Assembly (NCBI RefSeq): GCF_002854065.1 | Contig: NZ_CP024147.1 | DNA from: Escherichia coli | GTDB taxonomy: Bacteria > Pseudomonadota > Gammaproteobacteria > Enterobacterales > Enterobacteriaceae | Reading direction: 5' to 3' (one strand) | Length of the DNA stretch: 64,000 nucleotides | Part shown: in pieces, positions 50,234-53,200 of the stretch | How the letters are laid out: the number at the start of each line of letters is the position of its first letter | Position numbering within the stretch: position 1 is the stretch's first letter | Made by a program: the position numbers

Positions 50234-53200
50234 TTAAACAAAAAAACGAAGCAAGCATACGCCTGATGGCGGTCCAAAAAAAAGAGTCATCTTGCCTAAG
50301 AGTATTGGCAGGATGGTGAGATTGAGCGACAATCGACTTACACCGTCGCTTAAAGTGACGGCATAATAATAAAAAAATGAAATTCCTCTTTGACGGGCCA
50401 ATAGCGATATTGGCCATTTTTTTAGCGCAACATTTGCGGCAAATTCCCTTCTCCATACAGGTGTAGTGCACCGACCGCGACCACATATCGCCCCGGCGGC
50501 ATGGCGCGTAATTTATCCCGCCAGGCGAGATTTCGCTGATGCATAAGCACATCGTACAGCGACTGACTGAACGTATTGGGCAGCGTTATTTCATTATTTT
50601 GCGGCGGCGCATTCAGCCACCAGCTCATCATTTGTTGCAGCAACCGTGCGTTGGTATGCCAGTGGGTCAGCGTATCGTCCAGCAGCGCCAGTCCTTTGTC
50701 AGGGAGCTGGAGCAACATGGCAATCTGGTTTTCAGCCCCTTCCAGTTCAATCACGGGTTTATGTTGTTGCTTCGCCGCCTGCAATAGCTGGTAATCGATA
50801 CCGTATTCTGCCCGCAGCCCCAGTTTTTGTGCCTGCGTCGCCTGAAGAACCATCGCGATTTGCCACAGCGGTTGGGTAGAAAAGAGTGACGGAGAAATGC
50901 CCATCTCCTGGCTAATGTGCTGCAGATTTTGTAATTGCTCCTCGCTAATACGCTCTTCCAGCGCCTCGCAGGCAGGCAAATTAGCAAAAGGCGTATCGCT
51001 GGTGGAAACATCCGCCTCGACGATCAGCGCATCGGCGTTTTTGAGCTTTTTGAGCAAACGGGTGGGCAGGGGAGCCATATCGTGGCTACCCATATGAATA
51101 CTGCCAATCAGATGAAAATGGCGATTGCCGGGAAGGGTGATATCGATGGCAGGCCAGGTGTAATGATTACCGCGCAGCGCGGCCCAAAGCGTTTTTACCC
51201 GGTACAACAGATCCATACGACCTCCCTTTGTGAAATATCATGCTAGCGCGCGGGGAGGGATGGCGCAAATGGAGTTGGGGACTTGTTTAATGTGTTTGTA
51301 TGATTCAGTATGTTCTTGTATCGCTATTCACAGGGAAGCAACAGTTAAAAACTATGAAACAGGCAACAAGAAAACCGACGACACCCGGAGATATTCTTCT
51401 CTATGAATATCTGGAACCGCTCGATTTGAAAATCAATGAGTTAGCAGAGTTGCTGCATGTTCATCGTAATAGCGTCAGTACACTGATCAATAATAATCGT
51501 AAACTCACCACTGAAATGGCATTCCGTCTGGCGAAAGTTTTTGATACCACAGTCGATTTTTGGCTAAACCTCCAGGCGGCAGTTGATCTTTGGGAAGTTG
51601 AAAACAACATGCGCACCCAGGAAGAATTGGGACGGATTGAAACAGTGGCTGAATATTTGGCACGCCGTGAAGAGCGTGCAAAAAAGGTCGCGTAAGGCCA
51701 AAACATCGCTTCATCTCGTAGGCCGGATAAGGCGTTCACGCCGCATCCGGCATCCGAGTACCATTGCCTGATGCGACGCTTACGCGTCTTATCAGGCCTA
51801 CAAACCTGTGCCTGAACCGTAGGCCGGAGAAGGCGTTTACGCCGCATCCGGCAGTCATGCGTCGATGCCAAATGCGCCACCCTAAAGCAGCGCATCCGCA
51901 ATGATGTACTTATTCCTTCGGTTTAAACCGCAGCAACCGGTTGGCGTTACTCACTACGGTAATCGACGAGAGCGCCATTGCCGCTCCGGCAACTACCGGG
52001 TTAAGCAACGTTCCAGTGAACGGCCACAAAATACCGGCGGCGACCGGAATACCGATGCTGTTGTAGATAAACGCGCCGAGCAGGTTCTGCTTCATGTTGC
52101 GCAGCGTTGCGCGGGAAATAGCGAGCGCATCCGCAACGCCCATCAGGCTATGGCGCATCAGGGTAATCGCCGCGGTTTCAATGGCAACATCACTGCCGCC
52201 CCCCATCGCAATGCCGACATCCGCCTGGGCCAGCGCTGGCGCGTCGTTAATGCCGTCGCCCACCATTGCCACCTGACGTCCTTCACTTTGCAGACGTTTG
52301 ATCGCTTCGGCTTTACCGTCCGGCAGCACTCCGGCGATCACCTCATCAATCCCTGCTTCTTTGGCGATCGCATTGGCGGTGGTTGGGTTATCCCCGGTCA
52401 ACATCACCAGACGATATCCCGCTTTATGCAGGTGTTGCAGCGCCGCCACGCTATCACTACGCAATGGATCGCGTACTGCCAGCAGGGCTACCGCTTTCCC
52501 GTCAACCGCCAGCAGCACAGGCGTTGCCCCTTGCGATGCCTGAGCTGAAATATCTGCTTCAATCGCTTTAGTATCAACTTGCTGGTCATTTAACAGCGCC
52601 TGATTGCCCAGCAATAACGCATGACCTTCAGCTTCACCGCTCACGCCCAGCCCGCGCAATGTGCGGAAACCGTTGACCTGCGGCAGCTGCATATCGCTTG
52701 CTTTATCGAGGATCGCCCGCGCCAGCGGATGGCTGGAACCTTGTTCCAGTGCCGCCGCCAGACGCAGCGCCTGCGCTTCGTCAAAATCAGCAAATGTTTT
52801 CACTGCGACAACCTGCGGCTTCCCTTCGGTCAGCGTCCCGGTTTTATCGAACACGACGGTATCGAGTGTACTGGCGCGTTGCAGCGCGTCGGCGTCCCGC
52901 ACCAGCACGCCAAACTCAGCCGCCCGCCCGACGCCGGAAATAATCGACATCGGCGTCGCCAGCCCCAGCGCACACGGACAGGCAATAATCAGCACCGTGG
53001 TGGCAATCACCAGGGTATAGACAATCTGCGGTGCCGGACCAAAGAAATACCAGATTGCCGCACTGACAAGCGCAATAACCACTACTACCGGCACAAATAC
53101 GGCTGAGATTTTATCCGCCAGCTGACCGATTTCTGGCTTGCTGCTCTGGGCCTGGCGCACCATACGAATAATCCTTGATAGCGTGGTATGGCTGCCAACC

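What the first reader, a model, noticed from the sequence alone, without database searches (positions are those of the whole stretch)
51354..51695. YbaQ: a HigA-like antitoxin-fold protein without a visible toxin partner
YbaQ has the XRE HTH typical of HigA antitoxins, but neither flank contains a small HigB/RelE-like ORF. It is flanked by divergent ybaP and a BIME cluster. It is an orphan antitoxin-like regulator; whether it guards against a toxin encoded elsewhere is unknown.
Basis: inference. Interest (0 to 1): 0.3.

Follow-up and report, generated by a model that had tools for sequence, protein, structure and literature searches.

The report
Orphan antitoxin YbaQ; toxin gene deleted
This is the well-known E. 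coli gene ybaQ, the surviving antitoxin half of a two-gene toxin-antitoxin cassette whose toxin gene (higB-1) still sits just upstream in about a quarter of E. coli strains but has been deleted in this one; the case is already published.

Summary
Window 51354-51695 (+) is E. coli ybaQ (113 aa). It is an XRE helix-turn-helix protein that scores 105 bits on the NCBIfam HigA antitoxin model (cutoff 47.7). K-12 YbaQ has a solved structure (PDB 2EBY). It lies between divergent ybaP and a REP/BIME cluster next to copA. No HigB/RelE-like ORF exists in the flanks or anywhere in the 64-kb window.

The missing partner is known. Rousset et al. (bioRxiv 10.1101/2020.05.25.114553) showed that ybaQ is essential in phylogroup B2/F strains, which carry the toxin higB-1 immediately upstream, and that higB-1 is absent from most other phylogroups. 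I reproduced this in 5,426 complete genomes:
- About 23% have ybaP|higB-1|ybaQ|copA.
- About 66% have the orphan layout seen here.
- About 11% lack ybaQ.

In this window a 70-bp stretch (51278-51347) replaces about 405 bp that hold higB-1 and its conserved operator. Outgroup genera have ybaP next to copA, so the cassette was acquired within Escherichia.

Orphan ybaQ still evolves under purifying selection (dN/dS about 0.08). The literature shows it is ClpXP-labile and binds DNA.

Two points are probably new. The cassette operator is gone from ybaQ's own upstream region. The nearest mobile relatives are the addiction module of D6-like phage-plasmids.

Verdict: real, ordinary and already known.

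The parts
51354..51695 (+). ybaQ coding sequence (113 aa plus stop). It is a HigA-family XRE helix-turn-helix antitoxin. The HTH domain spans about residues 16-70. The C-terminal helix ends in ...RREERAKKVA, a ClpXP degron according to the literature.
   Evidence: ORF; HTH_3; TIGR02607 at 105 bits; PDB 2EBY; RefSeq annotation; ClpXP tag (PMC2907309) and accumulation in a clpX null strain (PMC8652233).
51217..51277 (.). Left part of the ybaP-ybaQ spacer. It is shared, and identical, between orphan-type and higB-1-bearing alleles, and is conserved into E. albertii. This is ancestral ybaP upstream sequence.
   Evidence: Alignments.
51278..51347 (.). A 70-bp replacement segment, or scar, at the place where B2/F strains carry about 405 bp holding the higB-1 promoter/operator and the 100-codon higB-1 gene. 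Identity with the B2 allele resumes at 51348 (AAAACT ATG). The native Shine-Dalgarno sequence of ybaQ is gone.
   Evidence: Alignment A1; multi-lineage alignment; operator comparison; no operator match in the window.
51290..51321 (+). Two copies of a 12-nt direct repeat (ATGTGTTTGTAT and ATGTTCTTGTAT) spaced 20 nt apart inside the scar. Their meaning is unknown and they may be chance.
51300..51353 (+). In-frame upstream extension of 18 codons that many public records annotate as a 131-aa YbaQ. It has no family match and lies entirely in the scar.
   Evidence: cluster P0005.
51717..51876 (.). REP/BIME cluster between ybaQ and copA. Its content varies between alleles, and L002 (B2-type), L004 and L018 lack it.
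50422..51216 (-). ybaP (TraB/GumN family), the divergent neighbour. It is context only and not part of the cassette.
51910..54414 (-). copA (copper P-type ATPase), the convergent neighbour. In other genera it lies directly next to ybaP.

Best explanation
ybaQ is the antitoxin half of a chromosomal type II HigB/HigA-type toxin-antitoxin cassette (higB-1/ybaQ) that was inserted between ybaP and copA within the genus Escherichia. In the lineage of this window, the toxin gene and the cassette's promoter-operator were removed and replaced by 70 bp. That left a solitary antitoxin. The protein is still made and is still kept short-lived by ClpXP through its C-terminal tag. It still binds DNA through its XRE helix-turn-helix and is still under purifying selection. 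K-12, another orphan strain, has a YbaQ protein identical in sequence to the B2 antitoxin, which is essential where higB-1 is present, and the window's protein differs by one residue. I therefore infer that the orphan remains a competent HigB-1 neutraliser and repressor of the cassette operator. In this genome it has no cis target, so it acts only in trans, as a minor transcription factor and possibly against incoming HigB relatives. What is shown: the gene's identity, the absence of a toxin, the allelic series, and the loss of the operator. What comes from the literature: essentiality with higB-1, derepression of higB-1 on ybaQ knockdown, ChIP-exo binding, and ClpXP lability. What is inferred: its present role.
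For: Family membership and structure.

The allele with a 100-aa toxin is L002. Its toxin scores 111 bits on Pfam PF05015 (HigB-like_toxin) and ends 35 bp upstream of ybaQ.

Counts in 5,426 complete genomes: ybaQ is present in 4,833 and chromosomal higB-1 in 1,267. A spread sample gave 39 orphan, 14 toxin-bearing and 7 ybaQ-less records out of 60.

Secondary losses:
- E. whittamii keeps the first 26 nt or so of the B2-type operator and then runs straight into REP sequence (score 23 against 6.9+-1.5, reached by 0 of 500 shuffles).
- E. coli L004 keeps the orphan-type left end plus the last 20 nt of ybaQ.

Ancestral empty site: Citrobacter, Salmonella, Klebsiella, Enterobacter, Raoultella, Trabulsiella and E. 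albertii all have ybaP next to copA, with neither gene between them.

The closest homologues (75-81% identity) in Kosakonia and Enterobacter kobei are preceded by a HigB-like toxin at unrelated chromosomal sites.

Toxin decay beside an intact antitoxin recurs. The C. freundii copy is frameshifted and one Enterobacter copy has a premature stop.

Purifying selection: two orphan lineages differ by 13 synonymous and 4 non-synonymous changes, giving dN/dS 0.08.

Literature.
Against: The 70-bp segment is not a clean deletion junction and its origin is unexplained. The history could therefore involve allele replacement rather than a single deletion.

One ybaQ-less E. coli type (L003) looks like the never-occupied E. 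albertii site rather than a deletion product. 'Loss' is therefore not the only route to absence.

ybaQ is dispensable in at least some lineages. About 11% of genomes lack it, and one Escherichia lineage has a C-terminal frameshift.

The dN/dS estimate rests on only 17 substitutions.

No experiment shows what the orphan protein regulates. The ChIP-exo target list was not available to me.
Confidence: 0.88

Rival explanations
1. Anti-addiction or immunity role. The orphan is retained because it neutralises, or represses in trans, HigB toxins that arrive on mobile elements. The main candidates are D6-like P1-family phage-plasmids, whose HigB/HigA module is the closest mobile relative. If so, the host would tolerate loss of, or interfere with, those elements.
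For: The HigB of plasmid pB2C_96 is 79% identical to HigB-1, and its HigA is 77% identical to YbaQ. Phage D6 carries a module with the same layout, and its toxin is also 79% identical to HigB-1. The D6-like operator (GCACTTGCGCACAGTGC) is nearly the same as the B2 operator. About 100 plasmids in PLSDB carry a toxin at least 60% identical, and 63 plasmids in complete E. coli genomes carry it. Purifying selection on orphan ybaQ needs some explanation.
Against: There is no experimental test. At 77-79% identity, cross-neutralisation in TA families is often lost. Phage D6 was propagated in C600, a K-12 strain with orphan ybaQ, so the orphan does not prevent its maintenance. D6-like elements are rare (about 1% of genomes), which makes them a weak selective force for a gene kept in 89% of genomes.
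Confidence: 0.2
2. YbaQ has been domesticated as an ordinary host transcription factor, and its current selected function has nothing to do with any toxin.
For: ChIP-exo validated it as a DNA-binding transcription factor with a MEME motif in K-12, which has no higB-1. Its expression responds to growth conditions. It is under purifying selection. It is retained with the same junction across E. coli and three other Escherichia lineages.
Against: The K-12 deletion mutant is viable, and the papers I could read report no phenotype. A 2025 screen still lists ybaQ among 'partially characterized' regulators with no prior perturbation expression data. It has been lost repeatedly. This reading is compatible with the best explanation and not exclusive of it.
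Confidence: 0.45
3. A toxin partner is present in this locus but was overlooked, for example a small, overlapping, antisense or unusual ORF, or an RNA toxin.
For: Several antisense ORFs overlap ybaQ, for example 51461-51901 on the minus strand (146 aa).
Against: Six-frame tblastn with two HigB proteins found nothing anywhere in the window. Eight local ORFs gave no Pfam hit at E<=1. Rfam finds only REP-derived matches. ybaQ can be deleted in K-12, and Rousset et al. scored it essential in only 5 of 18 strains. The long antisense ORFs run through REP sequence.
Confidence: 0.02
4. The orphan is a functionless relic on its way to pseudogenisation, kept only by drift and linkage.
For: It is absent from about 11% of genomes through at least two different structures. 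Escherichia sp. E1V33 carries a frameshift. The native promoter, operator and Shine-Dalgarno sequence have been lost.
Against: dN/dS is 0.08 between orphan lineages. The ORF is intact and at least 95% identical in 4,833 genomes. The protein is detected in proteomics and by ChIP.
Confidence: 0.1

Closest known systems
higB-1/ybaQ toxin-antitoxin module of E. coli phylogroups B2 and F (Rousset et al., bioRxiv 10.1101/2020.05.25.114553)
   Same: It sits at the same chromosomal site between ybaP and copA. The antitoxin gene is the same: 98-99% identical at the DNA level, with one amino-acid difference from the window and none from K-12. The left flank is identical and the right flank (copA) is conserved.
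   Different: The window lacks the 100-codon higB-1 gene and the promoter-operator that precedes it, and 70 bp of unrelated or highly diverged sequence take their place. ybaQ is essential there and dispensable in orphan strains.
HigB/HigA addiction module of phage-plasmid D6 (orf70/orf71) and D6-like plasmids of about 90-96 kb
   Same: It is the same subfamily. In a D6-like plasmid the toxin is 79% identical to HigB-1 and the antitoxin is 77% identical to YbaQ, with an operator core nearly the same as the B2 one. Phage D6 has the same gene layout and a toxin that is also 79% identical to HigB-1. The antitoxin is of similar length, 112 aa against 113 aa.
   Different: It is mobile and complete, toxin included. 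It is followed by a second HTH gene. Its C-terminal tail differs: it ends in ...KKAA, whereas YbaQ ends in ...AKKVA.
GraT/GraA (Pseudomonas putida) and P. aeruginosa HigB/HigA, the structurally characterised HigA-family antitoxins (PDB 6F8H/6F8S, 6JPI, 7CSV)
   Same: They share the TIGR02607-type single XRE-HTH antitoxin of about 100 aa encoded downstream of a PF05015 HigB-like toxin. Sequence matches are at E 1e-10 to 1e-11.
   Different: They are only distantly related in sequence. Those systems are complete pairs. YbaQ has a longer C-terminal helix that carries a ClpXP tag.
Solitary (orphan) antitoxins in general, for example as catalogued by RASTA-Bacteria (PMC2374986)
   Same: YbaQ was the first such case named in E. 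coli.
   Different: Nothing differs. This is that case.

Membership tests
HigA-family antitoxin (NCBIfam TIGR02607 antidote_HigA) | Sequence scores above the curated family cut-off | tested here: met
   105.2 bits against a cut-off of 47.7, covering profile positions 2-80 of 81.
HigA-family antitoxin (NCBIfam TIGR02607 antidote_HigA) | Single XRE/Cro-type helix-turn-helix domain in a protein of about 100 aa | tested here: met
   Pfam HTH_3 at E 2.4e-10 over residues 16-70. The solved structure 2EBY is one residue different.
HigA-family antitoxin (NCBIfam TIGR02607 antidote_HigA) | Encoded immediately downstream of a HigB-like (PF05015) toxin | tested here: not met
   No HigB-like ORF is in the window. 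The feature is met at the allelic locus in 1,267 of 5,426 genomes and in the closest homologues from other genera.
HigA-family antitoxin (NCBIfam TIGR02607 antidote_HigA) | Neutralises its toxin and represses the operon | not testable with these tools
   Literature only. ybaQ is essential where higB-1 is present, and knockdown derepresses higB-1 in strain S88. K-12 YbaQ is identical in sequence to the B2 antitoxin protein.
HigA-family antitoxin (NCBIfam TIGR02607 antidote_HigA) | Proteolytically unstable antitoxin | not testable with these tools
   Literature. The C-terminal tail is used as a ClpXP degron, and YbaQ accumulates in a clpX null strain.
Complete type II toxin-antitoxin system | Toxin gene and antitoxin gene together in one operon | tested here: not met
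   The toxin gene and the operon promoter-operator are absent from the window. The locus is a solitary antitoxin and not a TA system.
REP/BIME repeat cluster | Imperfect palindromic REP units in alternating orientation, repeated across the genome | tested here: met
   Rfam naRNA4 (REP-derived) scores 86.2 bits against a gathering score of 59.5, on both strands, at 51721-51798. There is a 59-nt repeat. A query containing the cluster matched a median of 37 places per genome.

The most novel reading that the evidence does not exclude
The orphan YbaQ is kept by selection as a chromosomal 'anti-addiction' or immunity factor. Having lost its own toxin and its own operator, it would neutralise HigB toxins, or repress the near-identical operator in trans, of D6-like P1-family phage-plasmids and related plasmids. 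That would alter their maintenance or their post-segregational killing in the roughly two-thirds of E. coli that carry the orphan.
Probability: 0.15. Interest if true: 0.5.

Novelty: already known. Interest (0 to 1): 0.15.

Why it matters
It matters little as a discovery. YbaQ was called a solitary antitoxin in 2007, and its lost partner higB-1 was identified and tested in 2020-21.

It is still a tidy textbook example of how chromosomal toxin-antitoxin cassettes decay toxin-first while the antitoxin lingers under selection. It also shows why a 'core' gene can be essential in some strains only.

Three small additions here could guide a bench test of why the orphan is retained:
- The ancestral empty site in other genera, with remnants that prove secondary loss in E. 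whittamii and some E. coli.
- The loss of the conserved operator from the orphan's own upstream region.
- The link to the D6 phage-plasmid addiction module.

Tried and rejected
1. A fossil of higB in the spacer. MAFFT aligned window 'ATTCACAGGGAAGCAACAG' (reading LFTGKQQL in the ORF extension) with higB-1 'ELSGKLQEY'. tblastn against the spacer alone gave only chance-level hits (best E 0.66). Rejected.

2. The 70-bp scar as a copy of the E. albertii empty-site sequence. The local score was 12 against 8.1+-1.5, reached by 20 of 500 shuffles, and only the first 11 nt or so are clearly shared. Inconclusive.

3. The 70-bp scar as a diverged B2 operator. It is 20/35 identical ungapped by eye, but the local alignment score was not above shuffles (102 of 500). 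Inconclusive.

4. Inverted repeats or operator palindromes in 51200-51360. None were found, only one 12-nt direct repeat.

5. A sigma-70 consensus promoter in the spacer. The scan found none. A weak TTGTTT-17-CAGTAT can be read by eye, but it is unsupported.

6. The YbaQ ChIP-exo target list and motif. The supplementary files are not held.

7. Structure prediction and fold search were not run, because a crystal structure (2EBY) already exists.

8. A protein-level search of the source genome for HigB toxins elsewhere could not be done, because the E. coli genome collection has no protein mode. DNA-level search finds higB-1-like sequence only at this locus or on plasmids.

Full report
**What is there**

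The window is E. coli chromosome with the gene order ushA, ybaK, ybaP, ybaQ, copA.
- The ORF ending at 51695 with the annotated start at 51354 encodes the 113-aa protein YbaQ.
- It matches Pfam HTH_3 (E 2.4e-10).
- It scores 105.2 bits on NCBIfam TIGR02607 'antidote_HigA', whose cut-off is 47.7.
- The K-12 protein has been crystallised (PDB 2EBY). The window's protein differs from it by A43T in the recognition-helix region.
- ybaP (50422-51216, minus strand, TraB/GumN family) is divergent and 137 bp away.
- Downstream, 51717-51876 holds REP units. Rfam naRNA4, a REP-derived family, scores 86.2 bits there against a gathering score of 59.5.

**Is a toxin hidden here?**

No.
- tblastn with two HigB proteins against all six frames of the 64-kb window gave nothing better than E 0.36.
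- The spacer searched alone gave only noise.
- Eight small ORFs overlapping or flanking ybaQ have no Pfam match even at E<=1.
- Rfam finds only the REP-derived hits.

**Where the partner went**

The literature already answers this.
- RASTA-Bacteria (PMC2374986) called YbaQ a solitary antitoxin in 2007.
- Rousset et al. (bioRxiv 10.1101/2020.05.25.114553) found ybaQ essential in 5 of 18 strains. These were phylogroup B2/F strains that carry a toxin, higB-1, directly upstream.
- The same study showed that ybaQ knockdown derepresses higB-1 in strain S88, and that higB-1 is absent from most phylogroups including K-12.

I reproduced the genomics. In strain QA-1986 630 (L002), a 100-aa ORF lies between ybaP and ybaQ and ends 35 bp before ybaQ. 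It scores 111 bits on Pfam PF05015, HigB-like_toxin.

| State in 5,426 complete E. coli genomes | Count | Source |
|---|---|---|
| ybaQ present | 4,833 | |
| chromosomal higB-1 present | 1,267 | |
| orphan ybaQ, as in this window (by difference) | about 3,566 (66%) | |
| toxin-bearing | 23% | |
| no ybaQ (by difference) | about 11% | |

An evenly spaced sample of the ranking gave the same proportions: 39 orphan, 14 toxin-bearing and 7 ybaQ-less out of 60.

**Anatomy of the loss**

- The window is identical to the B2 allele up to 51277 and again from 51348 (AAAACT-ATG).
- Between those points, 70 bp replace about 405 bp that hold the higB-1 promoter-operator and gene.
- Single-piece, full-length matches in the orphan genomes sampled show that they share this junction. 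Three other Escherichia lineages (L016-L018) share it too.
- The native Shine-Dalgarno sequence of ybaQ (GAGAAAGG) went with the deletion.
- An in-frame ATG at 51300 inside the scar explains why many records annotate a 131-aa form.
- The origin of the 70 bp is unresolved. It is about 55% identical to the B2 operator over its first 35 nt and weakly similar to the E. albertii empty site, and neither similarity is significant.

**Direction of change**

- ybaP lies directly next to copA, with neither ybaQ nor higB, in Citrobacter, Salmonella, Klebsiella, Raoultella, Enterobacter, Trabulsiella, Pluralibacter and E. albertii. The cassette was therefore acquired within Escherichia.
- E. whittamii retains the first 26 nt or so of the B2-type operator fused to REP sequence (score 23 against 6.9+-1.5, reached by 0 of 500 shuffles). 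It once had the full cassette and lost both genes.
- One ybaQ-less E. coli type (L004) retains the orphan-type left end plus the last 20 nt of ybaQ. That is a later deletion of the orphan.
- Another ybaQ-less type (L003) resembles the E. albertii empty site, with an unrelated GC-rich insert of about 300 bp. That site may never have been occupied, or it may have been replaced by recombination. This qualifies the published statement that phylogroup D 'lost' both genes.

**The family habit**

- The closest homologues (75-81% identity) in Kosakonia and Enterobacter kobei sit downstream of a HigB-like toxin at unrelated chromosomal sites. This is a mobile two-gene cassette.
- Toxin-first decay recurs. 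The C. freundii copy has a frameshifted higB, and one Enterobacter copy has a premature stop, each next to an intact antitoxin.
- All five toxin-bearing or recently toxin-bearing cassettes share an upstream core, GCACTTGnGCACnGTGC, followed by N4-5, then GTGC or ATGC, then a -10 element.
- That core is absent from the whole window, even allowing 3 mismatches.
- The orphan has therefore lost the operator through which its relatives would be expected to autoregulate.

**What the orphan does now**

Shown here or reported in the literature:
- The protein is made, and it is validated as a DNA-binding protein by ChIP-exo in K-12.
- Its C-terminal tail is a ClpXP degron.
- It accumulates in a clpX null strain.
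- Two orphan lineages differ by 13 synonymous and 4 non-synonymous changes, giving dN/dS 0.08. The count is small, but it is consistent with continued constraint.
- K-12's orphan protein is identical to the B2 antitoxin.

Inferred: the orphan remains a competent, labile HigB-1 antitoxin and repressor with no cis target, acting in trans.

What selects for it is open. The most interesting candidate is cross-talk with the addiction module of D6-like P1-family phage-plasmids:
- A D6-like plasmid carries a toxin 79% identical to HigB-1 and an antitoxin 77% identical to YbaQ. Phage D6 has the same layout and a toxin that is also 79% identical.
- Their operator core is nearly the same as the B2 one.
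- About 100 PLSDB plasmids carry a toxin at least 60% identical.

I give this reading about 15-20%. Such elements are rare, D6 itself was propagated in a K-12 host that has the orphan, and cross-neutralisation at this level of identity is uncertain.

**Verdict**

The finding is real and correctly described, but it is an already published case of a solitary antitoxin whose toxin was lost. Novelty: already known. Interest is low.

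Noticed in passing
window 51721-51798 and 51822-51863: The REP/BIME units downstream of ybaQ hit Rfam naRNA4 (RF02564, nucleoid-associated ncRNA). 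The first pair scores above the gathering score on both strands (86.2 and 62.4 bits against 59.5). The REP content of this spacer differs between alleles, and L002 (B2-type), L004 and L018 lack it.
   Followed up: partly
window 51300-51353: An in-frame upstream ATG gives a 131-aa YbaQ that many public records annotate (cluster P0005, 2,627 member sequences). The annotated start at 51354 has lost the Shine-Dalgarno sequence present in toxin-bearing alleles, so the real start and translation signal in orphan strains are uncertain.
   Followed up: partly
window 51480-51482 (codon 43 of ybaQ): This allele has Thr43 where K-12, B2, D6-like and all other relatives examined have Ala, within the HTH recognition-helix region. 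Only 310 of 4,833 genomes are at least 99% identical to this allele.
   Followed up: no
L003 3312-3451 (E. coli RIVM_C036569, ybaP-copA spacer without ybaQ): A GC-rich insert of about 300 bp occupies the site. It has a sub-threshold Rfam hit to the TwoAYGGAY RNA motif (31.5 bits against a gathering score of 43, E 0.005). The left flank resembles the E. albertii empty site rather than a ybaQ deletion product.
   Followed up: partly
L017 about 3585-3863 (Escherichia sp. E1V33): ybaQ carries a 10-bp deletion that frameshifts the protein after residue 93. The C-terminal helix and the ClpXP tag are removed, while the HTH is left intact.
   Followed up: partly
L008 3188-3477 (Citrobacter freundii) and L013 3141-3437 (Enterobacter): Toxins have been inactivated independently (a frameshift and a premature stop) directly upstream of intact YbaQ-like antitoxins. 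Gene callers miss or truncate these toxin genes.
   Followed up: yes
L060 1501-2628 (phage D6) and L005 3002-4129 (plasmid pB2C_96): The P1-like phage-plasmid D6 and plasmids of about 90-96 kb carry a HigB/HigA module closely related to higB-1/ybaQ, followed by a second HTH gene that is also annotated as HigA-family. The role of that third gene is unknown.
   Followed up: no
window 51290-51301 and 51310-51321: A 12-nt direct repeat (ATGTGTTTGTAT and ATGTTCTTGTAT) lies 20 nt apart within the 70-bp scar upstream of ybaQ. It could be a new regulatory site or chance.
   Followed up: no
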